In this document: positions 14,085 to 63,401 of the stretch, in pieces
How positions within the stretch are numbered: position 1 is the first letter of the stretch
Layout: each line of letters opens with the position of its first letter
DNA from: Vicugna vicugna
Taxonomy: Eukaryota
Assembly: GCA_013265495.1 (NCBI GenBank)
Contig: MU058565.1
Location: forward strand, 1 to 64,000
DNA length: 64,000 bases
Direction: 5' to 3'
Notes under the pieces: model-generated
Seen by the model: only the letters and a program-made list of their open reading frames with translations
Databases searched by the model: none
What the model was told of the DNA's origin: nothing
Position numbers and translations under genes: made by a program

Positions 14085-14155
14085 AGATAGAGCAGCACCA
14101 GGCTGGTAGCCAGGAGAACCCACGTTTCTATGGAAAAGCTTGGGATCAGGTCCAT
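14085..14155 (-). CDS. CYP3A: CYP3A gene A exon 1 (coding): MDLIPSFSIETWVLLATSLVLLYL
   Basis: ATG at 14155, 71 coding nt, GTGAGT donor; typical CYP3A N-terminal membrane anchor. Confidence 0.97.
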
Positions 14156-14272
14156 GGCCACTGTCCTCCGTGACTCCCTTCTCCGAGTTCCCTCACCGCT
14201 GTGTGCGCTGCTCTTCGCCTGTGAGCGTGGAGCTCCCCGTCCTGCCCGTGGAGATGCAGCGAGGCTGGAGGG

Positions 14273-14278
14273 TTTATG
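14273..14278 (-). promoter_or_regulatory. TATA-like box of gene A (CATAAA)
   Basis: Positional homolog, ~120 nt upstream of the ATG. Confidence 0.5.
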
Positions 14279-14379
14279 AGCTGGGAAGGGGGTGGGGCTG
14301 GAGCTGCAGCCAGTAGGAGGAACACCTGTGCTGTACCTGCAGGCGCTCAGTTGGCAAAGCATCTTGGACACTCTAGTTT

Positions 14380-14397
14380 TGGCCTCCTTTGTGTTCG
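14380..14397 (-). promoter_or_regulatory. Degenerate proximal ER6 of gene A: CGAACA-caaagg-AGGCCA
   Basis: Positional homolog of the gene B ER6 with 3 half-site substitutions. Confidence 0.7.
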
Positions 14398-17300
14398 TAT
14401 TCTGTAGGAATTCAATAACTACTCAATTAATGCCATCAGTAAGCACAACCGTCACAGACACTCACAAAAGCCGCTGACCGTATCTTCTCTAACTTGCTTC
14501 TCCTTAACTGCCCTCATTTGAAAATGCTTGAAATTCTTCCAACAAGCTGGGTCTACAGATCTTTATCCATGCAGTTTCCTCTCCCTCGAAGTCCCGTGTT
14601 CCCTTTGTATGTCCCCTGCTCATCCTTCAGATCCCATCTCAGACAGAACTCTCCGCTTTAGAGCCTTTCCTAGCCAACCTTCTTGATCAGGTATAACTAC
14701 TTCTCCTGGCAAACTTCCGTCCCCTGCACACAATCTATTATCTCCAGCACCATGGTTGGTTTCCTCACCTAGTTCCCTCACCAGATTGAGAACCTGGGCA
14801 CAGCCTGGCTATTAGTCACCACCATATCCCTGGAACCAAGTAGAGTGCTTTCTGTAGAGTGGGGATGAGAAAGGTTTGTGGAATTGCGTTGGTCGAGGTA
14901 GGACCTCTAGGCCACTGTATGTGCTTTTCAAGTGGCTCTTTGGTAACCACTGGACTGTTAGTACAACAAGAGGGCCTGGTTGGACCCTGGCCACCATCAC
15001 TGCACATGCAGGATGACCCATCAGATTCTGCTGACAAGAGGCCCTTGAAGGAGAGGCAGGACATGGACCAGGGGGTGATGGCTGCACCAGGGGATATCAA
15101 TTCATGCTGTCTTGTCTCAGGGCCCTGCAGTAGACAACAAGTTAGACAGATTCTTGACCAAAGAATGGCCTCTGTCTCTGGAAAGGCTACAAGTCCGAGA
15201 TCAACAGGCATAAAGAGAGTGGAGAGGAGAAAGCAGCCTGATGGTCAAGTGGACCCCAACCACCTTATCTACCAATGATGAGGCACACAATACACACAGG
15301 ACTCCAAAAGGGTATCAGGAAGTTCCTATGGGGCTGAGTGGGGTCAGAGCAGACAGCTTCCAACCTGTAGGCAAGTCGGGAAGGTTTTAATGGGTACGAC
15401 GATCTGGTAACGCAGAGACCTACAGTGGAACACGGTGTCATCTGTGAGCCCACACCCCACTCCTGATGAGAGACACATGCGGGTTAAGGGTCTGCAAATT
15501 CCATGGCCTCATTTTCATCCCTCTGACCCATGTCCTGTATCTGCTTCGTCTGGGAAACCATGAGCTGTGGAAGAAAGAAAATGTGAAACTTTTTTTTAAA
15601 ATTTATTATTAATTTTTATCTCAAAAATTGTTAAACTCAAGGGAAACACAAGACATTTAAGCTGTTTGTGCACTTCCTTCTTTCTTCATGCTTTGTCACT
15701 TTCAGTCCTTCTGCAGGATGAGATACTCATCTCTTACCAACTCTTTCCATTCCTCTGGTCTGAAAGTCCCTGGGGCTGCCTGACAACAGCCTGAGTGGGT
15801 GGATGTCTCATTGGTAAAATGCAGTAGGTCCCAACTATCTCACCTGTCCTCTGTTATTTCCTTGGGTTATTGTCATGGAGCATGACATTTCTACCATCAT
15901 AGTCTGTCAACTTTCTCCAGGAGGCACCTGTTACAATCCGTAGCTGCCACTGGAACAGTGTATGAAGACATCTGTTCACCAGTCCAGTGTTTGAAGGCCA
16001 AGTGGATGAATGTCAGGTGTAGGTGATGTGCTAGGCTGTGGATTAGAAGCCAGACAGTCCCTCCATGGGGAGGCTGCTCCCCATGAAGGGAGTGAGACAC
16101 ACAACCATGCCACGTATGTGGGATATGTGTGGAATGTCTGGGATAATGGAGCCCTACAGAAGCATAATGAAGGAGACAATTGGCTGCAAGCTTGAACACC
16201 AACACAGGACAGACCTGAGAAGCAGGAAGATGACCCCCAGGAGAGGTAGGATAGAACGTCCCAGGAATTCTGGTATGGGTGTGCACCATTTTGGTGACTT
16301 CTCTGGGCACTATTAAATAGAATCGTGCTACAATCTCCAGCTTACAGATGTAGAAAGTGAGGGTCAGTGAGCGCAAGTGGCTTCCCAACTACTGATCTCA
16401 AGAATGTGTTATAAATGAGCCAACACGAGACAGATGGCAAGTCTGCTCTGAAATGCTAATATTCAGTGTTTGTCATTTCACGGTAAGGGTCATTCTGGGA
16501 AATACTGAGTCCCAAGACTGCAAACTGGTTAACAATTGGTTAAAATAACTGATTCCTATCTTGAGGGCTACCCCCACCCAGGAGCTCCCCCATGGATCTC
16601 CACAAATAAAGGCTCCATCACCCCTCGTCAGGAACGACAGCTGGTGCAGGTCATCAGAACACTCGGGGTCTTGTATACAGTCTCTCTCTACAGTGCTGAC
16701 CAAGGGGTACATAACAGGGAAAGATTAGGGTGTCATTTGTAACTGCTGACACCTTAATTCACTCAACTAAACTCATTTCTTCTTCTTCTTGGAAACCAAG
16801 CTCTTGTGGAAACTATAAGGCTTTTCTCTTCCTCCAAAACAGGAACTCAGCTTTGATGATTATCAACTAAGCCTGGTATGACCATCACCCACCCTCCTCA
16901 CCACAGGGCTGCTTGGCATCTATCCTAATGGCAATAGGCTAGTCCCATGTATTTCCTGGGAATAAAATGCGGTCAGTACCATGTCCTAACAAATGTGTAA
17001 TGGTCTTGCTCTACAAGGGGAAATCATGGAAGGCATTATCTTTGTGTCCCTTCATTCCATGGCAGGGAACACCTAACGAGAAAAGTCTGACATACTAAGA
17101 CTGTGAAGAAAGATACTGTGTTCCTGACCCGCCCTCCTGGCTCCCCACCACCCACACACAACACTCCATATTTATCATCTATTTGTGTACTAGGAGATCA
17201 TCATGGACTTTCAAAGCTTGTTTCTCAATATTTAGGGCACAAATATGACTAAGACTCAGACATTATGCAGGTTGAAGACAAAGACAAATAAACTGGTAAT

Positions 17301-17431
17301 TATAGTACAGCCAAGGTAAACTAAGTATATGGACCCAGTATTCTCACCAAGTGTAAATGGCTTACTTTCTCTCTCAGACCACAGCAATCAAAGTTGAAAA
17401 TCAGGTAACACTCAGGTGTTGTGGAAAAATG

Positions 17432-17960
17432 TGTTACAGCTCAGTGTCACCGCTCAGTTGTGACACCAACCTGGATCCCAGCAAGAGACCAAGCAGCACT
17501 CAGAGCATTGGAGAATTCAGGTCTATTAAGCCAGCAGGCCAAGAAGAGTTAACACTCCAAGCTCTGGACCCTGCCTGTAGGTTTACACAGGCCTTTATAG
17601 GCTGCCAGTTTAACCTTTGCAACATCATATACAAATAAAGTATAACAAAAGTTGACCAACTAGGAACAAGCTTTGTAGAAATAGGCCAATCATGAGTGAG
17701 AGAAATAACCAATCAGGAGTGAGAGGAATGGACCAATCAGGAGTGAGAGAAACAACCAATCAGGAGTGAGCTCCATGCAAATGAAGTACTACAAATGGAC
17801 CAATTAGAAGTTAGGGAAGTGGACCAATCAGAAGTGAGAGTAATAATGAAGCCGGAATGAAGGCAATAACCAATCAGAAGGGAGCTGAGGGAACCAATAG
17901 AATTTTAGCAGTAAGTAAGCCATTTCAGAGGCAAAAAGTGACATAGAGCCTCTGGTCCGG
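17432..17960 (-). mobile_element. Solo ERV1-type LTR with CCAAT tandem repeats (right boundary approximate)
   Basis: Minus strand ends ...CTGAGCTGTAACA; TATAAA at 17594-17599; eight CCAAT boxes in ~23-24 bp units; octamer ATGCAAAT. Confidence 0.7.
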
Positions 17961-19144
17961 GGAACCGGATGATGCTGTCAGGAGAGTTTGACCCTGCTTG
18001 GGAGTCCCGCCGCTCTTTTCATGGGGCTCTCCGCCTTAAGAGAAGCATTAGGCTCAGCATCAGTACAGGTGAACCGGGTGTCAGGGACTCAGGGATGCAG
18101 GATGCACTACCAATTTGCTATTCCCATCCTTCTATATTGTTAGCCCAGGTGACTCCTCTTCTGGGAAGCCTGTCGGCATTTCCACTGGCTGAAAGAATTG
18201 CTCACGATATGGGGAGGTAGTGTTGGTCTGGAATGATTTGTGTTAGATTCAAATTTCTCAGATCACAATCTGAAGTGTGCAAACAATGAAAGCAAGATTA
18301 TGTTAAGTCTGCCCCCACGCCCTCCTTGTTCTCAGTAGGGCAACATTTGACAATGCCATTTTGGAATAACAGTGGGTCTCAAAGTGTGGGTAGCTGGGGG
18401 AGGGGAGGAGCCAAACTTTCAGGGGCTCCTGGTTCCAAGGATGGGGAGATAGTGACAAGACATTGTGTCTTGGCCTGAGAGGAGGTAGGCACCTCAACCC
18501 AATGTCGCTGTATGTTGGATGGGATCTATGCCTGCTGTGTTCAGTTCATGTGCCAAGAACTAACTGTAAAGAAAGCCAAATCCTTGCTCTCATGAAGCCC
18601 ACACTTAAAGGGGAGAGAGACATAAACAAATAACTTCACAAATCAATTTCAGTTACATGTCAGGACGTGTGTTATGAAGTAGAAGAACCCCCTTGCTTTA
18701 GCTTCCTTAGCATTGATATAATTCCCTTTTCGTCCTTTTCCTTCTGTTCCCCTTGAAAAATATGAAGGCAACAGAATCAACAGAACTTGACTCACTGGAA
18801 GTGTGTGAGCCTGGGCATCATCTGTGTGAGCCTGTTTCCTCATCTGTCCATGACGGAAATTGATTGGGATTGACGCAGAAAAACCTTATTCCAACTGCAA
18901 GACCCCTTCACTGCCTGCCTCTCTCAGCCTCTTTGTCCCTCGAGGATTTTCTGAACTCTTTCTCCATAATTCTCTGTCCCTCCTATGTCATTCAGGTCCC
19001 CTAGTCCCCCAGCCCTGTCAAGAACTGAGAGTTCCTGAGGGCAAGATGGAGAGCCAAGGTGCAATAGGATGGACCCATTTAGGACCTGAGCTCTAGATGC
19101 TAGAGTGGTTTCTCAGCTGGGACTGCACACAGAGGGGCACACAG

Positions 19145-19145
<1 letters not shown>

Positions 19146-19198
<53 letters not shown>
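19146..19198. repeat. Pure (AC)~26 microsatellite
   Basis: Directly visible; the gene B homolog (53360-53382) is short and interrupted. Confidence 0.97.
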
Positions 19199-19199
<1 letters not shown>

Positions 19200-19254
19200 C
19201 AAGACCTATCCTCGGGAAAGGAGAGCTAATATTTTTTGTTCTGAGTACTCGGCC

Positions 19255-19440
19255 TGCATTAAGATACTCAGTCCGCCCTACAATCCTATGAGATAGGTCT
19301 TGTTACGAAGCCTCTTATACAAATAAGCTAGCTGGGACCCAGAAAGTTACGCGACTGTTGAAGGGTACATGACTAATTACTATCAGAGCTGGGATTCAAA
19401 TTTAGATCTTCTAAGTTGAGAGCCCAAGGTCTTACCTTAA
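19255..19440 (+). mobile_element. MIR; homolog at 53420-53605; further MIRs near 19795-19930 and 53990-54110
   Basis: MIR core (cctatgag..cccattttacaga..agagctggga.tcaaa). Confidence 0.6.
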
Positions 19441-20779
19441 TCCAGGCTCAGCCCTGCCCAAGCATTTAGTGGGAAAGCCCGGGTCTTTTGAGGTGGCAGT
19501 GACCAGGGCTTCGCCCCCACCCAGAGACAAGGTGAGGCGCGTCCGCACACCCCTCGGGGGGGGGCTGGGGTGAGGTCGGGGGTGTCCCTTCTGGCCCCGC
19601 ACAGCCCATCGCGCACAAAGCCCCCTGTGCCCTGAGGCGGAAGCGCTTCCTTAGACTTCACAGCAAAGGGAGGAGGAGGCGGGCGCCCTCAGGGACGCTC
19701 ACTTTCTGCTCCATTGCAGAGTGTGTCCCTCCTGATGACCTAGTCACGGACCTCTCCACCACATGGTAGGCTTTATAAAGTGCTTTTAATGGATTCTTAC
19801 AAAATCTCTGTGAGATAAAACGTGTTGGAATCATTTTATTCCCACTTTACAGGTGTCGAAACAGAAGCTCAGGGTAAGGAAGAGTCCTGCCCAAGCAAAT
19901 AAACTGTGAATCTGGATCACACAGCCAGATCTTGTGATTCTAAATTGTTTCTGTGTCATGTTTGTTTAGAGTCAAGGGGCCTCCTGAAACAACTCTGCAG
20001 GCTGCGCCAGCCTCACATGGGACAGATATGTCTTTGCACGTAGCTGGGAATGACCCAAAATGAGATGCACATCCTTCTGTATTAGGTACTTGCTGAACTT
20101 TCGGTGCTTCCGTTAGAGGATAATGCAGGTGATTCGGACATGTCACAGTCAGAGTCATTTGGGTTTCCAGGAAAGCGGACAGTAAAAGGTGATGAAAACA
20201 GTAAGGGCAAGAGGAATCAGAGAACAGAGGCAAATATCAGAAGACCACGTGGAAGGGAATTAATAAACAGGAAGTGTAAGATGAAGGAAGAAGAAGAGCG
20301 AGTGTGTTGGGTGTGCTGGAGAGGAGAGGCAGCTCGCCGGCCTGTCCTCATCGCTGCAGTGGCTTCCTAACAAGCGGCCTCATCCAGGCAATTCCCCTCT
20401 TAAGCCACACGACAGATGCGGGTAAAATGTGGATCCTTTAACGTTCCCCTGTTGCTCAAATGCCTACAACCATTCCCATCATCCCCAAGAGAAAATCTAA
20501 ACGCCTCAGGTTAGCAACTCATGACCCGTCCTCACCTGGCCAAGAGGGGCTCCTTCAGATGTGTTCTGACCCATTTCCTCATCCATTTGGCACAAAGGAG
20601 GGAAGGGGAGAGGGCATTTCAGGCTGTGAGAATTGTGCAGCTGACTGCCATGATCACTGCTGAGTGTATTTCTCATCTCTTGCCTGCAAAACACAGTGTC
20701 TAAATGAAGCCAACTTTCTTACTGCTAATACAGGAGGGAGTGGATCAGAGAGCAAGCTAGGGACACTCTGCTTCTAGGG

Positions 20780-22475: not shown

Positions 22476-22984
22476 GAACAAGCTATGGGCTGTACGTTTC
22501 GTTAGCAAGAGGAGGAGACATGAGTTCACGCTGAAGTGAAACATAATGAAAAGGCTAGGAGTCTGCTGAGCGCGGACTCTGTATTTTTCTCCTACTGGTT
22601 GTGCTGAAATGGATCTTTTTACTGCCTCCTGCGTGCGGAGGCCCTGACTCATAAATGTTTAGAACTTAATTTTCAGGATCCTCATGGGGGCGGTGGTGTC
22701 TGGCCAGCTGTGTGAGCTCGGGGCCCCCACCCCCAACATTTCCCACCCCTGCAGGACCTCCAGTCCACCCCCACCCCGTTGAAATGCTTCCTCTCCCCTC
22801 CTCCTGCCCTGGGGCAAAAATCGTTTCTAAAAAGTTCCCAAGTTGAGGCCATTGTAAGCAGAGAAAAGACAATCACAGAGGAACAAAACACAGGAGTAAG
22901 GTGAGCTCTTCCCCCTTTCAGACACAGGGTCGTTACAACATTCCGTCAGGGCTACTGGAAACGGAGGCCTAGGCTCCACATTCA

Positions 22985-23325
22985 GCCCCAGTTACTGGGA
23001 GCACTGGCTGCTACCAATGAGAGGCTGCCCCATTCTCTGGAGAAGCTCCCTGGGCCAAACTTAAGCCACTGCCCCCGGGAGCTTGCGCCTCCTGGGGGAT
23101 GGGACGGCCAGTCTGTGCGTGACTGATGGGGTACAAAGCTGGCCCCTGCCTCAAGCTGGGACCCCCTCTGTAGGACAATGCTCCACAGAGACCCCAGCGC
23201 CACTCACCTTTTCTTCCTGCCTTCCCCAGCTCCCCTCACTCCCTTCTCCAGAGAGCACCCTCTCCATAAACCATTTGTGCCTGAACCCCTGTCTCAGGCT
23301 CTGCTTTTAGGGAACCTAAGTCAGG
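22985..23325 (+). mobile_element. ERVL LTR16/LTR33-like LTR; homolog at 57090-57435
   Basis: 3' end ccctgtctcaggctctgcttttagggaacctaa typical of this group. Confidence 0.6.
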
Positions 23326-24049
23326 GGCTGAGCCAGAGCTAGTTTGTGCACAGTGGCATTCAGCCGAGTAGCATACAGGTCCTGAAATTCAGCCCAAACT
23401 CTGTGATCTAAGCTATGCAAAGTGTAGCGGAGCTTGTCCTCAATTGCCAAAAGCCACTGATTAGTGTAGACTCAGCCCTGGAAGGTGCTGGGATTTGAAA
23501 CCCAGGACTCCAGCTTCAGAGCCCCTCACCTCTCAGTCACAGTGTGATGTCACCTCCTTATATCAAAATAAAGAAGACTAGGGTAGGATGCGGAGAGCTG
23601 TATAAGCCAAAAGGTACCTTTGTGACCCCACCAAATAATCACAAATTTACTGAAGAGCCTGTTCAAAGAACTATTTTCCTGACCCATCTCAGAGAAAATT
23701 GCCAACCTGATATTTCACACCCCGTCTCACCCACAAACGGTGATGTGCCAGCACATGACCACAGCACGACCTCCAAGTCAGGAAGTTCACGCTGTACGTG
23801 ACTGCCATCTGACCTCAGAGCCCCCAGCTCCTCACCTGTCCCCACCATGTCCTTATCGCAGAAGGACCTGGCCTGTGAGTCACCTTTAGATGTCCCCTCT
23901 CCAGCGTCTCCTTCATCTGGAACATTGTCAGCCCGGCTTTGCCTTCATGAGCTTCATGCTTTCATAGATGACAAACTAGTAACAGACCAGGAGTAGAATA
24001 TTCCTCAGTTTGGGTTTGTCCGTCTTCTTTTCAGGATTTCTTTCAGGTT

Positions 24050-24650
24050 TGCCTGCTTGGCAGAAACATCACACAGGTGAAGCAATTTCTTCTCACCTCA
24101 TCCTGTCACTGCACCCTTGACGTGTGATCAGTTAATCCATCCCATTTCTGCTTAGGCTTTGAAAGCACCTTTCTCCCCTCTGAAGCTAACCCTTCCCCCC
24201 TGTAACTAATGGGCATTTTGAGCAACACTACTTTGAAGCTATGCAAGTATCCTCATCAAACTGCAATTTATCCATTTATTTATATTTGTTTGTGTGTTCT
24301 CATGTTTTTCTGTTTTCTTGAACGGCTTATAATCTCTTACTTTCCATATTTATTATGATGGTCAGCTTGTCCTTGATTTGGTCAGTGGTGATCCATCAGG
24401 CTAGCTTTCGCGTCCTTTTGACAAGTCCACCTCAATCTTCACATTTCCTTGTTTTCTAGCCCAAGATGTTCCAGGATCATGATGTACTTTCCCAGACCTG
24501 GAATCAGCCATTTCTCTAAGAAGATCTGGTTTCTTTCAGTGGAAAATGATGTTTACAAGCCAAGGTCTGGGCACGAGATATGCTTATTGCTATTGGGGTG
24601 TCGCTGTTTCTAAACTGTATCAGTGGAGAGAAGTGGGTAATACGTGTTTT
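24050..24650 (-). mobile_element. L1MC-like 3' fragment; homolog at 58150-58920
   Basis: cccagacctggaatcagccatttctc..gaagatctggttc motif. Confidence 0.6.
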
Positions 24651-28410: not shown

Positions 28411-28786
28411 AGGAGAGCTTCTGGAAGTCCTGGTGGAAAATCATGTTGTTGAAAAGGCACGACATGGTCATCACTGCACTCACGACTGTGCACACACTTC
28501 CCCTTCCTTCCTGCAGACTTGAAACCAAGTTTAAAATGTTGCTGAATTTCAGTGGACTGCGTATAATCAGGCCATGCCAACTGCACTGACTCTAGATGAA
28601 CATTATAGTTGAGTCTCTATGAAGCCACAGACTTAGCCCTCCCGAGCTGATGGCAAATAGATTCTCAGCCGAAGAGAATACATTTTTCTTTGAATAGATC
28701 ACATTCTTAGGCATAGAGACTGAACCCTCAGTTAAGAAAACAACCCGCAATGAAACATTGTGAATGCAGAAAGTGAACTGTCTGAC

Positions 28787-48538: not shown

Positions 48539-48556
48539 TGACCTCCCTTGAGTTCA
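48539..48556 (-). promoter_or_regulatory. Proximal ER6 (PXR/CAR/VDR-RXR element) of gene B: TGAACT-caaggg-AGGTCA
   Basis: Both half-sites match the human CYP3A4 proximal ER6 (TGAACTcaaaggAGGTCA), at the equivalent position ~230 nt upstream of the ATG. Confidence 0.88.
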
Positions 48557-49974
48557 TATTCTCTGGGAATTCAATAACAACTCAATCAGTGTAATCAGTA
48601 AGTCCAAAGTTTATAGAAACTCAAACAAAATCATTAGCCATTAATCTCTAAACTGCCTTGTTTCTGTAACTACCTAAACTCCAAAATACATGAAATCCTT
48701 CAGACAAGCTGGGTCTACAGATCTTTGCCCATGCAGTTTCCTCTGCTTACAAATCCCCTTGTTCCCCCTCTAAGGCATCTACTCATCCTCTACATTGCAG
48801 CTTAGAAAAAACATTCTTTGTCAGAGTCCTTCCTAACCAACCTCCTTGAGCAGAAATAACTACTTAACCGAGCGGGCAATTCACATTCCCCCCACCCCCC
48901 ACAATTCTATTATTGTCCTTTTATCCTCCAGAACCGCACATTCTTGGCCTCCACACCTATTGCCCTTAACAGATTGAGAGCTTGGGCGCAAACTGGGTGT
49001 TAGTGACCCTATATTCCTGGTAGCTAGCAGGGGGCTTTCTGAGGAATGGGCATCCAGAAAGGTTGGTGAACTTGAGTTGGTGGAGGTAAGACTGCTGGGC
49101 CCCTGTGTCTCCTTTCCCTGGGGTTCCTTGCTGACCATACCAACGTCCTGAATTGTAAATACAACAGAGGGCCTGGCAGGACCTCAGCCACCATCACGGC
49201 ACATGCAGGATGATCCATCAGGATTCTGTCGACAAGAGGCCCCAGAAGGGGAGGCAGGACATGGACCAGGCAGTAACGGCTGTGTCAAGGGTATCAATTC
49301 AGGCAGATTCTTGTCCTGCCCATGAGAGGGCCCTGTAGCAGACAGCAGTTAGACAAATTCTCGACCAAAGAATCCGCCCCCCTCTCCACATGCCCCCCCC
49401 CCCGTCTCTGGAAAGGCGTCAAGTTCAAGATCAATGGGTATGAAGGGAGTGAAGGGGAGAAAGCCACCTGATGACGAAGTGGAGCCCAACCGCCTTAACC
49501 ACCTGTGGTGAGGCACACATAGCTTGTAGGACTTAGAAAGGTGACATGAGGTTTCTCTATGGGGCAAAGTGGGCGTCAGAGTAGATGCTTCCCTATTGTT
49601 GACTAGACTGAAAAATTTTCACAGGTAGTGAGAGTTAGTAAGGAGGAGGCCTATGGTAGAAGTTGTTGTCATCTCAAGGGCCCACTGCATTCCTACTGAG
49701 GCTAGAGGATTGACGTTCTGAAATTTACACTGGCTCTCTGACCAACGTCCTGTGTCTGCCTGGCCCAAGAAATCACAGATCATGGGAAAAACAAAAACTC
49801 AGAAGTTCTTAAAACTCAGCAGAAACGAAAGACATTTAAGCTGTGTTTATGCACTTCCTTTTCCTTTTGTTCTTTCTGACTTTCAGTCCTTCTGTAAATG
49901 CTGATGCTCACCTCTCACCAACTCTTTCCCTTCCTCTAGCCAGAAATCCAACACCAGTCTGAGTGGGTGAATAA

Positions 49975-51800
49975 ACCTAACAAGGACCATACACCATGAT
50001 CAAGTTACATAATAAAGGAGATGAAAGACTTACGCGCTGAAAAATATAAAACATTGATAAAGGAAATTGAAGATGATGTAAAGAAATCGAACTCAGATAG
50101 GAAGAATTAATATGGTTACAATGGCTACATTACCTAAAACAATCTACAGTTCTAATGTGATCGCTATCAAATTACCTATGACATTTTTCAGAAAACTAGA
50201 ACAAGTAATTCTAAAATAAATAGGGAACAACAAAGGATCCAGAATTGCCAAAGCATACCTTAGAAAAAAGAACAAAGCTGGAGGCATACCTTCTCAAACT
50301 TCAGAAAACACTACAAAGCTATAATAATTGAAACACTGTGGTATAGGCCCCTAAACAGATATGTAAATCAATGGAACAGAGTAGAGAGTCCAGAAATAAA
50401 CCCACACACCTATGGATAATTAATCTATGACCAAGAAGGCAAGAATATACAATGGAGAAAAGACAATCTTTTCAGTAAGTGGTGTGAGAAAGGTGGACAG
50501 CCTCATAGAAATCAATGAAACTAGAACACCCCCTCACAAGATGTATGGTTTAAAGACCTAAATATAAAACGTGACACCATAAAACTCCTAGAAGAGAACA
50601 TAGGTGAAACATTTTTGGACATAAATACTATCCATTTTTTTTAGAGGAGTCTCCCAAGGCAAAAGACACAGAAGCAAAAATAAATCAGTGGGNNNNNNNN
50701 NNNNNNNNNNNNNNNNNNNNNNNNNNNNNNNNNNNNNNNNNNNNNNNNNNNNNNNNNNNNNNNNNNNNNNNNNNNNNNNNNNNNNNNNNNNNNNNNNNNN
50801 NNNNNNNNNNNNNNNNNNNNNNNNNNNNNNNNNACTCAATATAATAAAAAAAACAAACAAACAAGCCAATCAANNNNNNNNNNNNNNNNNNNNNNNNNNN
50901 NNNNNNNNNNNNNNNNNNNNNNNNNNNNNNNNNNNNNNNNNNNNNNNNNNNNNNNNNNNNNNNNNNNNNNNNNNNNNNNNNNNNNNNNNNNNNNNNNNNN
51001 NNNNNNNNNNNNNNNNNNNNNNNNNNNNNNNNNNNNNNNNNNNNNNNNNNNNNNNNNNNNNNNNNNNNNNNNNNNNNNNNNNNNNNNNNNNNNNNNNNNN
51101 NNNNNNNNNNNNNNNNNNNNNNNNNNNNNNNNNNNNNNNNNNNNNNNNNNNNNNNNNNNNNNNNNNNNNNNNNNNNNNNNNNNNNNNNNNNTAGGATATG
51201 CCTAGAAAAGATGAAAACTCTGATTTGAAAAGATAAATGCACCCCAGTGTTCATGGCAGCATTATTTAGAATAGTCAAGACATGGAAAGAAGCCAAATGT
51301 CCATCAACAGGTGATCGTTTTAAGAAGATGTGACATATCTCTTTGTACACACACAGTGTGATATATATTACTCAGGCATAAAAAAGAATGAAATACTGTC
51401 ATTTGAACACTATGGCTGGACCTAGAGAATATCATCCTAAGTGAAGGCAATCAAAGACAAATAGTATATGGGGAACCTAAAAAATAATACAAATGAATCT
51501 TTATACAAATCAGAGTCAGACTCACAGACACAGAAAACAAACTTGTGGGTACTAAGGGGAGAGAGGGAGAGAGAAATTAGGAATATGGGATTAACAAATA
51601 CAAACTACCATGCATAAGACCGATAGCAACAAGGACTTACGATATAACACAAGGAAAAATATTCACTATCTTGTAATAACCTATAATGAAAAATAATCTT
51701 TAAACAGTTTATACGTATGTATATATATAATAATAACTGAGTCACTTTGCTATACACCTGAACTTAACACAATATTGCAAATCAACTAGAGTTCAATTCT
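49975..51800 (+). mobile_element. L1 ORF2-3'UTR insertion upstream of gene B (contains N gaps)
   Basis: Clear L1 ORF2 C-terminal region and 3'UTR; absent at the gene A homolog (~15800). Confidence 0.9.
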
Positions 51801-52160
51801 AAAAGGTTGTAAACACTGCAAGACTGGTATTCGGGCACAATCTGTACCGACTGCCGAGATCAGCGTAAAACGGTTACTCAATAAATGTTTGTCAAATTGA
51901 GTTGAATCAATATAGTGCCCTCCACATTTATTACTCATTTGCTTGTATTGATTTTTATACTGACTAAATGATTAAATAAACCACTTTGCTGGTACGTACA
52001 AAGTATTAAAATACTTTAGACCAACTCTCTGCTTTTGGTTTAATACTGACCCTTGCTTGGAAGACTCATTCTGCATACGTAGCAACTCTTTGAGGTAGAT
52101 TCTGAGGAAGCACTTTCAGAGCCAACTATGAGTTAAAGATATTGAATGTCTACATTGATT

Positions 52161-52290
52161 CTATTGTTTTTAAACTTTTTTTTCTTTTTGATGGGGGGGG
52201 AAAACAGGTTTATTTATTTATTTTAGTGGAAGTACTGGGGATTGAAGCCAGGGCCGCGTGCATGCTAGGATCTATACCCGCCCCCGGAAA
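52161..52290 (-). mobile_element. Vic-1-like tRNA-derived SINE, internally deleted
   Basis: Perfect 12 bp TSD TCTACATTGATT; shared tail taaataaataaacct. Confidence 0.8.
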
Positions 52291-54759
52291 TCTACATTGA
52301 TTTGAACATCGTAAACTTTAAAATCACAAAGGAATACTAGAGATTATCTACATCCACTTAGAAATAAACTGGAGCTACAAAAACTAACAGAATTTCCAAA
52401 GTCCTTACAGACTCCTAGTGAAATAATGTGGAAAAATGAAGTTTTAGCAATGTTGAAATAAAAAAATTATGTTTCATAATTAACTAATTAATCAACTAGT
52501 TACTAAAAGCAAGCCTATGGGTCTGTACCTCAGCTCTCAAGCCCTCCTGATTCTCCACAGGGAAAAACCTGGTGTTGCCATTTCGGGGTAACCAGGTGGT
52601 ATCTAAGCTTGGTGGCTGGGTGCGGAGGCTGGTGGGGGAGTGGTGAGGTAAGCGGCAGGTCTGTGGACATCCTCTCTTGGCCTTGGAGGCAGTGGCCACC
52701 TCACCCCTGTAACACTGTATGTTGGCCGGGATCTATAACTGCTGTGTTCAGGCCACGTGCCAAGCCTGGAATACAAGACTCAGATCCTTGCTTATGAAGG
52801 CGAGGAGGTGAGAGGCACTAAACGAATAATCACACAAATAAATATTGAGCTGTATACTGGGACATGTGCCATGCAATAAAAGAACCACCTTTCTTAAGCT
52901 CCCACAGCATTGATATAGTTGACCTTTCTTTCCTTAGACTCTGCCCTCCTTTGAAAAATATGAAGACAACAGAAATAGTAGGACTTGATGCACTGGAAGC
53001 GTGTGACCTTGGGCATCCCTGGGTCTGCCTCCTCATGTGTCGGTGAGGAAAACTGTCAAGAATTGAGGTAAGAGGACCTTACCCCAACCACAAGGCCCTT
53101 TCACTGCTGCCTCTCTCAGCTTCTGTGTCCCTTGAGGGTTTTCTAAACACTCCCTCTCCCTTTATTCTTCTTCCTATATATGTCATTTAGGGTCCCCAGG
53201 TACCCCCAGCCAATCGGGAACCAAGAGTTCCTGAGGGCAAGATGGAGAGCTGAGATGGAACAGGATGGGCCTGGGAGAAGACAGCCACCCATTTAGGACC
53301 TGAACTCTAAACTGTAGAGTGGTGTCTCAGCTGGGATTGCAGAGAGAGGGGCACACAGAACACACACACACACTCACACACATGTAATGAGAGCTAATAA
53401 TTTTTGTTCTGAGGACTTGGCCTGCATTAAGTGATTCCATCCACCCAACAATCCTATGAGATACGTACTTTCTGGATCCCTATTTTACAAATAAGCAAAA
53501 GGGGCCCCGAAAGGGTACGTGACCATTCAAGGATGCATCACGAATTACTAGCAGAGCTGGGATCCAAATTCACATCTTCTAGGTTTAGAGCCCAAGGTCT
53601 TAACTTCAAGTAGGCTCAGCCTTGCCCAAGAATTAGTGGGGGATCTAGCATTAAAGACCAGGTCTTCTGAGAGGGTAGTGGCCAGTGCTCTGCCCAAAAC
53701 AGAGACCGGGTGAGGCCCCTCGCAAGGCCATCAGGGAGGGCTGGGGGAGCTAGGGGGATGTCCTTCCTGACCCGCACACGGCCCACTGAGGAGAAAATCC
53801 TGAAGCCCATGCAGTGATGTGAGTGAAGCTGAAGCTGCACCATCCACTTTGCAGCAAAGGGAACAGGAGGAGGATTTCTTCATGGCTGCTCACCTACACA
53901 GTCCCAGACTTCTTATTCTTATAAACTGCCCACCAACACCTCTACTGTGGTTTATAAAATCCTTTCCTGTCTCTCTTACTTACCCTCATGAAATGTCTCA
54001 GATTATTTAATTCCCACTTTATAGATCTGGAAACAGGAGCTCAGGGTGGGGAAGAGTCTTGCCCAAGCCATTAAATCATGAAACCAGGATAGGGAGCCAG
54101 ATCGTGTGATTCAAAATTGTTGCAATAGCACACTTGCTTGGATTTCCAGGGGCGTCCTAAATAACCTGGCAGGTTTTATCAGCCTCGTAAGGATGAGTAT
54201 TTCTTCCCACTCCTCCCAGCATGCTTGCCTTGTTGTACAAATGCTACAGAACTGGTTGTGTCTGCAAAAATGACAGCCCATCCTTTTACTCGTTACTAAA
54301 TTTGGGTCACTGAACTGCTGCTGTCAGCTGATAGGTGATGTTGCAAACAGTTCTGACGTGTAGCAATCAGAATCATTTGATCTTCCAAGAAAGCAGGAAG
54401 TTAAAAAAAAAAGTGAACTCAGCAAGTGAAAGAGGAATCAGAATGGGAGGCAAATTTAAGAAGACCGCATGGAAGGGAGTTACTGAAATAGGAAGTGTAA
54501 GATGAAGGAAAAGGTAAGCATCACAGGTTACCTTGCAAAGAGGGGCAAAACTTTGGTGGTCTCTCCTAACTGTTGCCAGAAACACCTAAGGAGTTTTGCC
54601 TGACCCTAGGCTGACCTCACCCAAGGAATCGTCTCCTCGGCCACCAGACAGGGCCTGGTACGATAAGGATCTTGCAACATTCTTCTCTTCTTCAAATCTC
54701 TCCAAACACTCCCATCATCGACAGGATAAAACCCACTGCCTTAGGGTAGCAACTCAAGA

Positions 54760-56170: not shown

Positions 56171-58326
56171 GGAAAAAATACCCTTGGGCCACAGCTAGCT
56201 TCTTCAGTCTGGTCTAGGTCCACTCACAGAATATACATAGAGACCTTCAAGGAGCAAGTATATTTTAGCCTGCTTTCCCGAGAAAGAAGAGCCTGAGACT
56301 CAGACTATCGTGCTAAGATTTTAGAAGGAATTTGATCCCAGGGGAGCAACAGTGAAGGAACCAAGCATGGAAGGAAAGTGAATTTACACCAGGTTCCTAT
56401 TCAAAGGCACACTGCCTGTGTATCTTTGACCCCTGAAGGAATAAACCCGCCTCATCCTAGCTTTTCATGTACCCTGGACACGGCACAGATTGGACGTGAG
56501 CAGCGACATTTGTCAGAAACCTGGGCCATGAAAGCAATTCGAAGGGAGGGCAGGAGGGAGCCCGCACGAGCACGGTGGCAGCGTTTCCCCCAGGGTCCCT
56601 GCAGCTCCTCCCCCACAAGGTTCCCCACGCTCAGCTGTGATGACAAAGGCGCTCAGGAGATGGGGGATGTTTACGTTGTCCTTTGGAAAATTACTGAACA
56701 GCGTTAGGCATCACTGAGGCACTGACGTTGTCATAGTTAAACCTGCGTGAGTGGTGTTTGTAATTAGTTTCCGAAAGAGCAGTTGAAGGTGGAGTTGATA
56801 ATGTTGGAGCCCAAACTTCAAAACCACTATTGGCCTCCTGAGGACCGAGGATGACATGTCTGTGAAAGTGACAGGCAGGATTTATGCAGCACTCACTGCG
56901 TGCCCCCTGGTCTGTGTCCTAAACGGCTCACACGCAGCCTGATTCCATCATCACAGGGTAGGTGATGGCGTTATCCCCCATTGTGCAGGTGGGGACTCTG
57001 AGACAAACACTAAGGTATAAAATATTAACTCAGTTTTCAAGGACAGACTCTAGTGAAGTTACCACATCCCTTCCTGAGCTACAAATTCAGCCCCAGTTAC
57101 TGGGAGCACTGGCTGCCACCAATGAGAGGCTGCCCCATTCTCTGGAGAAGCTCCCTGGGCCAAACTAAAGCCACTGCACCTGGGAGCTTGCACCTCCTGG
57201 GGGATGGGACGGCCAGTCTATGAGTGACTGATGGGTTACAAATGCTGGCGCCTGCCTCAAACCGGGACCCCCTCTGTAGGACAGTGCTCCACAGAGACCA
57301 CAGCGCCACTCACCTTTTCTTCCTGCCTTCCCCAGCTCCCCACACTCCCTTCTCCAGAGAGCGCCCTCTCCGTAAACCATTTGTGCCTGAACCCCTGTCT
57401 CGGGCTTTGCTTTCAAGGAACCCAACCTAAGTGAGCAGCAAAGCCTGAGCTAGTTTGTGCACAGTGACATTCAGCTGAGGGACATACAGTTGCTGAAATT
57501 CAGCTCAAACTCTGGGGCCAAGTTATGCAAAGGGGTAGCTTGTCCTCAATTGCCAAAAGCCACTGATTAGTGTAGACTCAGCCCTGGAAGGTGCTGGGAT
57601 TTGAAACCCAGGACTCCAGCTTCAGAGCCCCTCACCTCTCAGTCAGTGTGGTGCCACCGCCTTACATCAAAATAAAGAAGACTAGGGTAGGATGCGGAGA
57701 GCTGTATAAGCCAAAAGGTACCTTTGTGACCCCACCAAATAATCACAAATTTACTGAAGAGCCTGTTCAAAGAACTATTTTCCTGACCCATCTCAGAGAA
57801 AATTGCCAACCTGATATTTCACACCCCGTCTCACCCACAAACGGTGATGTGCCAGCACATGACCACAGCACGACCTCCAAGTCAGGAAGTTCACGCTGAC
57901 ACATGACTGCCATCTGACCTCAGAGCCCCCAGTTCCCCACCTGTCCCCACAATGTCCTTATCGCAGAAGGACCCAGCCAGCGAGTTACCTTTAGATGTCC
58001 CCTCTAGAGTCTCCTTGTGCCTGGAACGTTGTCAGTCCGTCTTTGGTTTTCATGATGTTGACTCTTTCCAAGATTATGAACCAGTTGCAGACCTGGAGTA
58101 GAATAATCCTGTTTAGGTTCGCCTGACCCTTCAGGGTTTCCTTCAGGTTTGCCTCCTGCGCGGGAACATCACACAGGTGAAGCGAGTTCGTCTCACTGCG
58201 TTCCATTAGGTAACGTGCAGTCAGTTTCTCCCATCCCAGAATGCTCTCTCTGATCCCTTGATTAAAGCGCTGTCTGCCAGGTTTCTCCACTCTAAAGCTA
58301 CTCTTTCCCCTCTGTAATTAGTGGAT

Positions 58327-60053: not shown

Positions 60054-60326
60054 AACTGGGGGTGGGTGGAGATGGTCCTGTGAGAACTCGGGAAGCTGGG
60101 TCTAGATATCTGGCCCTTCCTAGTCACCTCCTTCATGTGGCACAACATACAACACTCCCCGTAGACCCTGAAAAGGCTCAATGAATGTACAGGATCTGTG
60201 ATCATCCAACAAGGCAGCGGGTGAGGCCCGTTTTCATTTCTGGGTTTTTTCACAAAGTCAGTCCAGGTCTCTGGTGCTCTGGAACGCGGCTTCCTTGCAG
60301 AACAACGCCCAGGTCCTTAGGGAAAG

Positions 60327-60422
60327 TCAGGCTTCATTTAAGGTTCCGTGTCTGGGCACAACTTTTAGAATGATGGGTTTTTTCGGTTGCAAAAGGCCTT
60401 GAGTGCCTAATTCCAGGGGGAT
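60327..60422 (-). CDS. CYP3A: CYP3A gene C exon 13 (coding): IPLELGTQGLLQPKKPIILKVVPRHGTLNEA*
   Basis: 96 nt to TGA, AG acceptor. Confidence 0.96.
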   Translation of the reverse strand: MPLELGTQGLLQPKKPIILKVVPRHGTLNEA

Positions 60423-60744
60423 CTGCAAGAGTTAAACAAGCACATGAGAACCAATCAATGAAGCATCACCAAGAAAAGAAGCAAAGTAGACAAGATACAT
60501 TAGGGACAATGATGCTTTACAAACACATAAAAGCTAACTTTCAGCAGCCTGTATCTTTGACTTTTTTAAACTACTAATTCAATGTGTTTAACAGATGAAA
60601 GGGCAGTCAGTCTATTTGTAGTTCCTTGATTGAATTATAATAGTTTAGGTCTTTCAGAGAATTGTTTAATTTAACATAAACTATATGGGCATAAAGGTGT
60701 TTGCCATACTCCTTTCTTATCTAATAAGGGTAGAATTAAAAAAA

Positions 60745-60891
60745 TTTTTTTTTCACAATGGTTTTGGGGGAGAAGGGAGGTAATTAGGTTTATTTATTTA
60801 TTTTCTTTTTTTAAACAGAGTCACTAAGGACTGGCCCAGGGCCTTGCGCATGCTAAGCATACACCTGCCACTGAGCTGTGTCTCACCCCCT
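60745..60891 (-). mobile_element. Vic-1-like SINE in gene C intron 12
   Basis: Same head and tail as the other three copies. Confidence 0.8.
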
Positions 60892-63238
60892 TATCCTCTG
60901 AAAATTAAAAAAAAATTTTTCACTTTTATTGAGATATAATTGATGTACAGAAGGGCATAAGTTTATGGCATATAGCATAGTGATCTACTTCTAATTATCG
61001 TGAAATTACTACCATAATAAGTTTTGTGAGCATTCATTATCTCATATAGATAGAAAAGAAGGGAAAAAAAACCATTGTCTTCCATGTGTGGGAACTCCTA
61101 GGATCTCCTCTCTTACACTGCACAGATGCTAACCCATCATGTGGTACATTACATCCTGCTCCTAATTTATTGTATAATCAGAAGTTTGTAACTTTTGACC
61201 ACGTTCATTCAATGTCCCCTCCTATCTCTGATCCTGTATATTTATTCTATCAGCTGTGTCAAAAGTGGATAGTGAAAGGATTCATCCATCATTCATTCCA
61301 CAGAATAGCTCTTGAGCACCTATTCTGTACCAGACTTGATCCAAAAGTCAGGTTGGCCTGTGTTCTTTATTGATTTAGAATTTAAATAAAAATGCTCAAT
61401 TTTAAAAAATATACCAGGTTCTTTGACATTATGGCAAAATATCTTGAAAAATGATGTACAGGTATTTTGTATATGTCAGCTTACAAGGTAACCCTTGGTG
61501 CGTATTACACATTTTAATTTTATGGGCCTTCCTCAACTTGTAAAGAGGCCAGCCCCTCTCTGAGTTGGACCCCATCAGTTTCATGGTGGAAAGAAGGCAT
61601 TGTGAAGCATTATGCCCGTTGTTTTCAACATCTCCTGGCTCCCAAGTGCAGGGAAAATGGTAAACTTCTGACGGCCTACAGCATTTTGCCTGATATTTTA
61701 GACCCATTCTCACTGAGTCACTTCTTCAGAGTTGGGGGAAACAACAGAGTGACCTTCTGACGTCAGGTGACAGAAGGGAAAACAAAACGTCATGGAGGGG
61801 AGAAGCCCCAGCCTGCGGGTGACTGGGTGCAGCTTGCTGGGAGCGTCTGCCCCTCCCAGATGTGCCAGGGGCCCCGTTTCTCTCAAGGGTGAGTCCCATG
61901 TCTGCACATGATTACAGGACTGCCTCACAGGTGCCCCAAAACAAAATGGAAACCATCTCTTTCCTCCTCGTCCCTGAGAAAGGCTGTTCATGTGGTGCAG
62001 CTTCTTATTAACTGCCTGGGTCCTGACACAGACCTTGTAATAGGGCCGGGATTCATACCAGTCAATGGCGACTGTCCTTTGTGCTCTTTAGAGAAGAGAA
62101 AGCAGATCCTTCTAGAAGTATTACACCTTGGTATTTTAGAATTTCAAAGGGCATGCATACATTTCCCTGCAGACAGACGGATACCCACAAACCCCAGAAA
62201 TACACAAATGTCATTTGTTAAATTTTAGAGGTCCAAACTGCTCAAATGTTTGTGTGCAAGAACTCTACGTCAACAGCAAGTCACTCCTTTAGCATTTACT
62301 GGGTGACTGCAAGGCACCGCTGGAAGTCTATGAAATGAATAAATGGAGGGGATAGAGTTCAAGACATTTTCGGTAGAAAGAAGACAGAAAGCCAAGCTGG
62401 ACTGTTCAACAACGCAGTCTTGAGTTAGGTGGTAGGACCCATGAGGTCAGCCTGTGTGAGCTAATAAGAGAACAGGGAGAATGGGCTTTGGCCAGACGGG
62501 GGAGGGCTCCATGGAATGGGCTTGGGGACTGAACTAGACCTGAGGGTGAGAACAGAATGGTGGGGGCGTAGACAGAACACACATGGACTTATTATTGGAA
62601 TGCAAAGGGAGCCCAGCCTGATGGCAGCAGGACTCCTGGAAGGTGAGGGGGACTGTGGGAGTCCTTCACATCTGGCAGAAATGCTTTCAATCAGGGTTTC
62701 TCCCCACAGCAGAATCTCTGGGGGTGTTTTGAATGTCACCCTGTGAGAATTATTTTAGGATGCCTCAGATGTCCTAGGCATCAGAATTTGTAAAGGACCA
62801 CAGATTTTCCTTATGCAAGCAGTGGCTGAGAAGCACTGTCAGGAGAGCTTCAGGAAGTTCTGGTGGAGAAGCGTGTTGCTGAAAGGTCATGACGTGGTAA
62901 TGACTGCACTCAGGACTGTGCATGCACTTCCCCTTCTCTCAAGGGGACTTGAGTCCAAATATCAAGTGTTGCTCAAGTTCAATGGACTGCATCTAATGCT
63001 GTCACACTAACTGCATTGACTCTAGATGACCTTTACAGTTGAGACTTTATACAGCTACAGACGTAGCCCTCCAGAGCTGATGGACAGTCAGAAGCTCAAG
63101 AGCTCCAAATAGATCTCTGCCTAGTAGAACAAATGATTCTTTGAATAGATCACATTCCTAGATATATATTGGGAGACCCCTCCGTTAAAACAAAAGTCCC
63201 AACAAAACATTGTTAACGCAGATAGGAAACTCTCTGAC

Positions 63239-63401
63239 CTGTGTTTCTTTACAAGGTTTGAAGGAGAAGTTCTGCAGGACTTTGGTGAGCGCAAGTTTCA
63301 TGCTCATCATAGCAAACCTCATGCCGATGCAGTTTCGGGGTCCAGTTCCAAAAGGCAGGTATGTGTAAGGATTTATGCTGTCCTGGTTCTTCTTACTGAA
63401 C
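63239..63401 (-). CDS. CYP3A: CYP3A gene C exon 12: [54 protein letters not shown]; upstream exons lie right of the window
   Basis: 163 nt, AG/GT flanks, heme motif. Confidence 0.96.

What the first reader, a model, noticed from the sequence alone, without database searches (positions are those of the whole stretch)
17432..17960. Co-oriented LTR with 8 CCAAT boxes, an octamer and a TATA 3.3 kb upstream of gene A: candidate alternative promoter or enhancer
CCAAT occurs at 17686, 17709, 17733, 17756, 17800, 17824, 17870 and 17894, five of them as the strong NF-Y form ACCAATCAG, in ~23-24 bp repeats. ATGCAAAT lies at 17775-17782 and minus-strand TATAAA at 17594-17599, so transcription would point towards gene A. 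No equivalent is visible upstream of gene B. The layout recalls NF-Y-array LTRs such as human ERV9/LTR12, which act as promoters and enhancers. Inference: the paralog that lost its ER6 may have gained an LTR-derived constitutive or germline/embryonic regulatory module.
Basis: partly seen in the sequence, partly recalled or inferred. Interest (0 to 1): 0.7.

Follow-up and report, generated by a model that had tools for sequence, protein, structure and literature searches.

The report
Viral LTR firing away from CYP3A
This is one of many hundred copies of an old retroviral end-repeat, sitting upstream of a CYP3A drug-metabolism gene; its CCAAT boxes are standard for the family, and the only transcript seen is a spliced RNA that runs away from the gene and likely starts in the repeat.

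Summary
The motifs are real, but they came with the repeat family. The element is a 622-bp solo LTR (17417-18038, minus strand) of a gammaretrovirus-like (ERV1) family primed by tRNA-Thr, with at least 562 copies in this genome. All 29 other copies examined carry 6-10 CCAAT boxes (median 8), and most carry the TATA box and octamers. It inserted upstream of one CYP3A paralog (gene A); two other paralogs show the empty site.

Gene A keeps its own core promoter. RNA contigs from three studies show no joint from the LTR towards gene A within the stretch laid; exon 2 was not in that stretch, and contigs cannot prove absence. Two studies instead show a GT-AG-spliced plus-strand RNA (exon to 18068, intron 18069-18767) that crosses the LTR's U3 edge and runs away from gene A.

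Best reading: an ordinary NF-Y-array solo LTR acting as an antisense promoter of a likely non-coding RNA through splice sites older than the insertion. Enhancer action on gene A is untested, and replacement of the lost ER6 is unsupported. New member of a known kind; modest interest.

The parts
17417..18038 (-). Solo LTR, 622 bp, of an ERV1 (gammaretrovirus-like) family primed by tRNA-Thr; its target-site duplication is decayed
17686..17898 (-). U3 array: 8 intact inverted CCAAT boxes out of 9 homologous family positions, in ~23-24 bp repeats
17775..17782 (-). Octamer, also present in most family copies
17629..17636 (-). Second octamer position, degenerate in this copy (intact in 27 of 29 others)
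17594..17599 (-). LTR TATA box, pointing towards gene A; present in most family copies
17522..17527 (-). LTR polyadenylation-signal position, degenerate in this copy (canonical in 20 of 29 others)
17912..18068 (+). First seen exon of a spliced RNA antisense to the LTR; its 5' end lies at or before 17912 and is not mapped; it crosses the LTR edge at 18038
   Evidence: X6 record 30; X1 joint
18069..18767 (+). 699-nt GT-AG intron. Donor GT also present at the empty-site paralogs C7320 and C6266; acceptor AG present at C7320, C6266 and gene B
18768..19098 (+). Second exon of the spliced RNA; continues past the laid stretch; nearest plus-strand AATAAA at 19898 and 20262
17360..17368 (-). Candidate splice donor just outside the LTR, seen only in gene A among three paralogs; not seen used. 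A second candidate donor lies in U5 at 17470
14380..14397 (-). Degenerate proximal ER6 of gene A (3 mismatches)
14085..14325 (-). Gene A core promoter (CATAAA 14278-14273), 5' UTR and exon 1 (ATG 14155); nearly identical to paralogs C7320 and C6266
23775..23789 (-). DR3-like nuclear-receptor site (1 mismatch) in a block 98% identical between the A and B upstream regions; candidate distal element kept by gene A
48539..48556 (-). Perfect proximal ER6 of gene B

Best explanation
The element is a solo LTR of a widespread ERV1-type family, and a spliced RNA leaves it on the plus strand, away from CYP3A gene A, likely initiated in the U3 CCAAT array as antisense LTR transcription. Shown: LTR identity and family, family-typical motifs, insertion at one paralog only, and the GT-AG spliced plus-strand RNA crossing the U3 edge in two studies. 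Inferred: NF-Y binds the array and opens chromatin in permissive tissues; polymerase starts in U3 in the antisense direction and uses a donor 30 nt outside the LTR and an acceptor 699 nt further on, both older than the insertion. The product is likely non-coding (longest ORF 64 aa for the seen exons, 69 aa if the whole LTR is included) and most likely a by-product. Gene A is likely still driven mainly by its own core promoter.
For: Family size: 1666 first-look candidates, 40 scored, best 88% identity; 562 exact hits of a 19-nt LTR-start pattern, 0 for the reversed control. Class: exact 4-bp target-site duplications in 15 of 24 copies with both ends called, 5-bp in 0 of 24. In 5 of 30 loci the LTR is followed by shared internal sequence whose primer-binding site matches the genome's own tRNA-Thr(TGT). 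Gag_MA, Gag_p30, MLVIN_C and TLV_coat hits in 8 of 14 fragments scanned, counting one Integrase_H2C2 hit below its cut-off. Motifs are the default: 6-10 boxes in 29 of 29 other copies, mean 7.6; CpG 7 versus median 6. Empty sites at 2 paralogs. RNA: joint 18066>18766, read as GT..AG at +2, in X6 (depth 59.8, 155 nt on the short side) and X1 (depth 2, 25 nt), 2 of 3 RNA runs from different studies. The likely-DNA run X10 crosses unspliced. X6 and X1 also hold intron pieces at depth ~3, so it is not a genomic deletion. The LTR part of the exon is locus-specific: other copies reach at most 84% there, against 8 differences in 155 for X6. X6 has depth 0 over 14160-17294. Antisense starts in U3 and bidirectional solo LTRs are documented (PMC10186651, passages).
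Against: The start site is not mapped. The X6 contig begins at 17912, almost where the X10 contig also breaks (17914), so this is an assembly branch point and not a start. A weak plus-strand acceptor at 17590 exists, so the exon could be internal. The RNA runs are 95-99% identical relatives, not the window's own label, and their tissues are poorly known. X1 support is thin. X4 shows no joint. All runs are contigs, with no strand or level, and they show presence, not absence. Exon 2 of gene A was outside the laid stretch, and only 24 of 93 loose ends were shown. NF-Y binding is untested, and NF-Y-bound LTR12s are mostly in closed chromatin (PMC12065363, abstract).
Confidence: 0.62

Rival explanations
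1. The LTR is an NF-Y/OCT enhancer that raises or broadens gene A expression, and the plus-strand RNA is its enhancer-type transcript. This can hold together with the best explanation.
For: It lies 3.3 kb from the gene A promoter, has 8 intact boxes, and shows RNA evidence of activity. Gene A's ER6 is degenerate. The ERV9 LTR with a CCAAT repeat array enhances the globin genes (PMC11853044, passages), and NF-Y-bound TEs are enriched for eRNA loci (PMC12065363, section 10).
Against: There is no sign of selective keeping: box number and CpG count are family-average, and one box and one octamer are lost. Gene A keeps a DR3-like distal site shared with B. No expression comparison of the paralogs was possible.
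Confidence: 0.25
2. The LTR is a sense alternative promoter of gene A in germline, placenta or embryo, splicing from U5 or the flank into exon 1 or 2.
For: It is co-oriented, its TATA is intact, and its poly(A) signal is degenerate. Candidate donors lie at 17470 and 17365, and acceptor-like sites at 14304-14242. CYP19A1 is a P450 precedent (PMC11007075, passage).
Against: No joint from the LTR towards gene A in 3 of 3 RNA runs within 14160-19100. Bin 17130-17294 has zero depth in all three, including two labelled reproductive-system samples. Unspliced read-through would meet 60 ATGs and 2 poly(A)-like hexamers.
Confidence: 0.12
3. The plus-strand spliced RNA starts elsewhere (for example antisense within gene A) and only passes through the LTR; the LTR itself is inert.
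For: The contig's 5' end is an assembly branch point. A weak acceptor exists at 17590. The splice sites predate the LTR. A human lncRNA linked to lower CYP3A4/5 expression is reported (AC069294.1; PMC9243486, passage).
Against: X6 has no contig over 14160-17294 while the exon has depth ~60, and no joint enters the LTR from that side. The plus strand of U3 is purine-rich, with no good acceptor in the array.
Confidence: 0.15

Closest known systems
Human ERV9/LTR12 solo LTRs (NF-Y array LTRs)
   Same: Class I ERV LTR with tandem U3 repeats bearing CCAAT boxes; acts as promoter, enhancer and lncRNA source, including bidirectionally (PMC11853044 passages; PMC10186651 passages)
   Different: Repeat unit ~23-24 bp with octamers, versus ~40 bp with GATA/MZF1 sites; 622 bp versus ~1.2-1.7 kb for the LTR12C loci listed; tRNA-Thr primer (LTR12/ERV9 uses Arg: recalled). 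Sequence homology was not tested; the resemblance is architectural.
PERV LTR U3 repeat boxes (pig gammaretrovirus)
   Same: Artiodactyl gammaretroviral LTR with multimerised U3 repeats; NF-Y regulation is named in a cited title (PMC5932395, passages and reference titles)
   Different: 39/37-bp repeats in a young family; this family is 11-13% diverged and mostly solo copies
Antisense/bidirectional LTR promoters (MLV U3 antisense starts, LTR9 at DSCR4/DSCR8, MER48 at EVADR)
   Same: Transcription from an LTR into flanking host DNA, giving chimeric spliced RNA (passages)
   Different: Here only the antisense direction was seen, the start is unmapped and no function is known
CYP19A1 placental LTR promoter
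   Same: An LTR upstream of a cytochrome P450 gene (PMC11007075, passage)
   Different: There the LTR drives the coding mRNA; here no chimeric CYP3A transcript was found
HERV-T-like, Thr-primed class I ERVs
   Same: tRNA-Thr primer site and MLV-like domains
   Different: The name is recalled; the paper search found nothing; no Dfam/Repbase comparison or pol phylogeny was possible

Membership tests
Class I (ERV1, gammaretrovirus-like) LTR | TG...CA termini and a 4-bp target-site duplication | tested here: met
   Family: 15 of 24 copies with exact 4-bp and 0 of 24 with 5-bp duplications. In the window copy the 5' dinucleotide and the duplication are decayed, with +3 nt against the C7320 empty site.
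Class I (ERV1, gammaretrovirus-like) LTR | Same LTR flanks an internal region with primer-binding site, polypurine tract and gamma-type gag/integrase/env | tested here: met
   PBS in 5 of 30 loci matches the genome's tRNA-Thr(TGT); PPT before the 3' LTR in L091 and L092; Gag_MA, Gag_p30, MLVIN_C and TLV_coat above cut-off. These provirus-flanking LTRs match the window copy at 78-87%.
Class I (ERV1, gammaretrovirus-like) LTR | Reverse-transcriptase phylogeny / Dfam family name | not testable with these tools
   No RT hit among the 14 fragments scanned; no Dfam or Repbase library on hand
Solo LTR | No internal sequence on either side; flanks join at an empty site | tested here: met
   Flanks align on both sides to the paralogs C7320 and C6266, which lack the insert; no second copy in the window
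ERV9/LTR12 | Sequence homology and ~40-bp U3 repeats with GATA/MZF1 sites | tested here: not met
   Repeat period is 23 versus ~40 bp; homology itself was not tested. Works like LTR12, but is not LTR12.
NF-Y-array LTR | Tandem CCAAT boxes in U3 | tested here: met
NF-Y-array LTR | NF-Y binding and dependence | not testable with these tools
   needs ChIP or mutagenesis
Exapted LTR alternative promoter of a coding gene | Chimeric LTR-to-exon transcript | tested here: inconclusive
Antisense LTR promoter | Spliced RNA opposite to the LTR, crossing its U3 edge | tested here: met
   GT-AG only on the plus strand, 2 of 3 RNA runs, absent from the likely-DNA run
Antisense LTR promoter | 5' end inside the LTR | tested here: inconclusive
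   The contig start is a branch point; there is no cover further 5' in X6

The most novel reading that the evidence does not exclude
The LTR was exapted as a bidirectional NF-Y switch inside the CYP3A array: it gives gene A xenobiotic-independent enhancer input in place of its lost ER6, while its divergent spliced RNA runs over the conserved DR3 block (23.5-24 kb) towards the 3' end of gene B (last exon ~26.1-26.2 kb) and so couples or opposes the two paralogs.
Probability: 0.08. Interest if true: 0.6.

Novelty: new member of a known kind. Interest (0 to 1): 0.3.

Why it matters
If the LTR only makes a divergent non-coding RNA, it is one more case of a known behaviour. It is useful mainly as annotation of the camelid CYP3A cluster and of a large NF-Y-array ERV1 family that I did not find described in the result listings (subscription papers, Dfam and Repbase not searched). 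If it alters gene A or B expression, it would be a lineage-specific change in a main drug-metabolising locus of a livestock group. That is directly testable, because filled and empty paralogous sites exist side by side.

Tried and rejected
1. Using gene B as the empty site: rejected, since B lacks the whole segment.
2. The 'perfect DR3' at 28774 as a gene A enhancer: set aside, because it coincides with the exon-12 donor region of gene B.
3. C6266 as a second 'ER6 lost without LTR' control: only partly valid, because its site now reads as a perfect DR4.
4. X6 contig 17759-17904 as proof that the exon extends further 5': rejected, since other copies reach 94% there.
5. X4 contig 14160-14327 as an upstream-start transcript of A: rejected; it carries paralog-type letters, and three paralogs share this stretch.
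6. X1/X4 patchy cover at depth 2-8 on both sides of the LTR: read as DNA or nascent background, not evidence. Lack of cover at 17130-17294 is not proof of absence.
7. CpG retention as a sign of germline activity: not above family (7 versus median 6).
8. First attempts to find a provirus failed: no PBS; L059 is two LTRs with no retroviral Pfam hit in 15 fragments; L060 is a segmental duplicate.
9. Rfam: 0 hits over 17300-20500.
10. Earlier scan notes: none.

Full report
OBSERVATION. The eight CCAAT boxes, the octamer at 17775 and the minus-strand TATA at 17594-17599 are all present. Five boxes have the extended form, and a 23-bp unit repeats 4.0 times at 17677-17770. The cluster is not chance: 8 in 213 bp against a maximum of 5 in 2000 random placements of the window's 74 sites. 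Gene A (ATG 14155, minus strand) is a CYP3A. Exon 4 matches CYP3A4 at E 6e-14, and exons 1-8 are open, with the expected sizes. The window is a tandem array with a ~34-kb unit and holds the last exons of a third CYP3A at 60-63 kb.

WHAT THE ELEMENT IS. A search of the own genome gave 1666 first-look candidates; 40 were scored, and the best other copy was 88% identical. A 19-nt pattern of the LTR start has 562 exact hits, and 0 for the reversed control. The copies fix the ends at 17417-18038 on the minus strand, 622 bp. Of 24 copies with both ends called (out of 32 examined), 15 have an exact 4-bp target-site duplication and none a 5-bp one. In 5 of 30 loci from a second pattern search, the LTR is followed by a shared internal sequence. 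Its primer-binding site matches the 3' end of the genome's own tRNA-Thr(TGT). Two such loci are ~5.9-kb two-LTR elements with polypurine tracts, their LTR pairs 3.5% and 9.8% apart. Stop-free fragments from three loci hit Gag_MA, Gag_p30, MLVIN_C and TLV_coat (8 of 14 fragments had a hit, one of them Integrase_H2C2 below its cut-off; no RT hit). The element is therefore a solo LTR of a class I, gammaretrovirus-like family.

THE MOTIFS ARE THE FAMILY DEFAULT. The 29 other copies (the best matches to this one, so a biased sample) carry 6-10 boxes, median 8, at nine homologous positions. The window copy has lost one box position and the second octamer (intact in 27 of 29), and its poly(A) signal is degenerate (canonical in 20 of 29). 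Its CpG count is ordinary: 7 versus median 6. Nothing suggests that this copy was specially preserved.

INSERTION HISTORY. Two further CYP3A paralogs, on contigs C7320 and C6266, align on both sides of the insertion point without the LTR, and no copy lies in the ~60 kb fetched from each contig. Gene B lacks the whole 2.5-kb segment. The window copy is 10.6-16% from other copies (median 13%), while A's flank is 23-24% from the paralogs, so the insertion postdates the duplications. RNA-run contigs about 95% identical to the window span the LTR edge (X4: 17976-18126; X6: 17912-18066), so it predates the split from that relative. If that relative is the other camelid tribe (inference), the split is dated 11-25 Mya (PMC4884201, passages).

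THE ER6 STORY. Gene A's ER6 has 3 mismatches, B's is perfect, C7320's has 1, and C6266's now reads as a perfect DR4. The proximal ER6 is conserved and functional in cattle CYP3A28 (PMC6433341, passages), so its decay in A may matter. However, A keeps a core promoter and exon 1 nearly identical to those of C7320 and C6266, and a DR3-like site at 23775 in a block 98% identical with B (the likeness to the human XREM is recalled, not tested). One gene with both changes cannot show compensation, and their order is unknown.

RNA EVIDENCE. The run search listed 21 runs. Four were laid on 14160-19100: three RNA runs from three studies and one near-identical run of unrecorded kind that behaves as DNA. 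The stretch did not include exon 2 or the coding part of exon 1, so joints to them are untested. One joint is locus-specific: 18066>18766, which reads GT..AG only on the plus strand (intron 18069-18767). It is in X6 (depth 59.8; contig 17912-18066 plus 18766-19098) and in X1 (depth 2, 25 nt on the short side), but not in X4. X10 runs through unspliced, and X6 and X1 hold intron pieces at depth ~3, which excludes a genomic deletion. The exon crosses the LTR edge, and other copies are at most 84% alike there. The donor GT exists at both empty-site paralogs and the acceptor AG at all three other paralogs, so the splice sites are older than the LTR. No joint leads from the LTR towards gene A. Bin 17130-17294 is empty in all three RNA runs, and X6 is empty from 14160 to 17294. 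The 24 of 93 loose ends shown match neither the flank nor exon 2, judged by eye. Limits: these are contigs, with no strand, level or start; the 5' end at 17912 coincides with a branch point also seen in X10; tissues are known only by coarse labels; absence is not shown. The longest ORF is 64 aa for the seen exons extended to 20300, or 69 aa if the whole LTR is included. Rfam has no hit.

MECHANISM. Most likely (0.62), NF-Y on the U3 array opens the LTR in permissive cells (inferred), polymerase starts antisense in U3 (inferred), and the RNA is spliced through latent flank sites (shown) into a likely non-coding RNA heading away from gene A, towards the 3' end of gene B (last exon near 26.1-26.2 kb). 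Antisense starts in U3 and bidirectional solo LTRs are established (PMC10186651, passages; PMC11007075, passages). Rivals: enhancer of gene A (0.25, compatible with the above); pass-through RNA from an inert LTR (0.15); sense alternative promoter (0.12). The last is structurally possible, with donors at 17470 and 17365 and acceptor-like sites at 14304-14242, but was not seen.

COMPARISON AND NOVELTY. It works like ERV9/LTR12 and PERV NF-Y-array LTRs (PMC11853044, passages; PMC5932395, passages; PMC12065363, abstract and section 10), but is not LTR12: the repeat period and length differ. I found no paper on this family or locus in the listings; in the one camelid TE survey searched (PMC8605555, passages), the passages shown describe ERV1 clusters only in general. 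Its supplements were not read and may name this family. Dfam and Repbase could not be checked. Earlier scan notes held nothing.

VERDICT. Observation confirmed, interpretation partly supported. New member of a known kind; interest 0.3. The useful addition is that the LTR's seen output points away from gene A.

Noticed in passing
L038 (G000:C6266 CYP3A paralog, proximal promoter): The ER6 position now reads AGTTCA-AGGG-AGGTCA, a perfect DR4: an apparent ER6-to-DR4 switch of the proximal nuclear-receptor element.
   Followed up: no
window 14085-14325; L037; L038: Core promoter, 5' UTR and exon 1 are nearly identical in gene A, C7320 and C6266, while their flanks are 23-24% apart, suggesting gene conversion that stops short of the ER6.
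   Followed up: partly
window 14348: Run X10 carries an 11-nt insertion relative to the window in gene A's proximal promoter, where A has a gap against B and C7320: a likely polymorphic indel.
   Followed up: no
window 22973-24096 / 57078-58196: Intergenic block 89% identical between A and B (98% over 255 nt) against ~70% elsewhere, holding a DR3-like site; a candidate distal enhancer or conversion tract.
   Followed up: partly
window 60280-63400: Open exons 12 and 13 of a third CYP3A gene upstream of gene B.
   Followed up: partly
window 19480-19780: G+C-rich patch (64% GC, CpG o/e 0.49 versus 0.31 for the window) just beyond the second exon of the plus-strand RNA.
   Followed up: no
L091, L092 (G000:C4354, C4951): ~5.9-kb two-LTR elements of this family with gag, integrase and env domain remnants and no RT hit among the fragments scanned; LTR pairs 3.5% and 9.8% apart, so the family spread over a long period.
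   Followed up: partly
window 49973-52505: Gene B's upstream region holds L1-like and SINE-like sequence (recognised from recall) in place of the segment that carries the LTR in gene A.
   Followed up: no
window 17295-17954 in runs X1, X4, X6: Family-wide RNA-run depth over the LTR is in the hundreds to thousands, with loose ends into other loci's flanks, so other copies may be transcribed too; multi-copy DNA background explains part of it.
   Followed up: no
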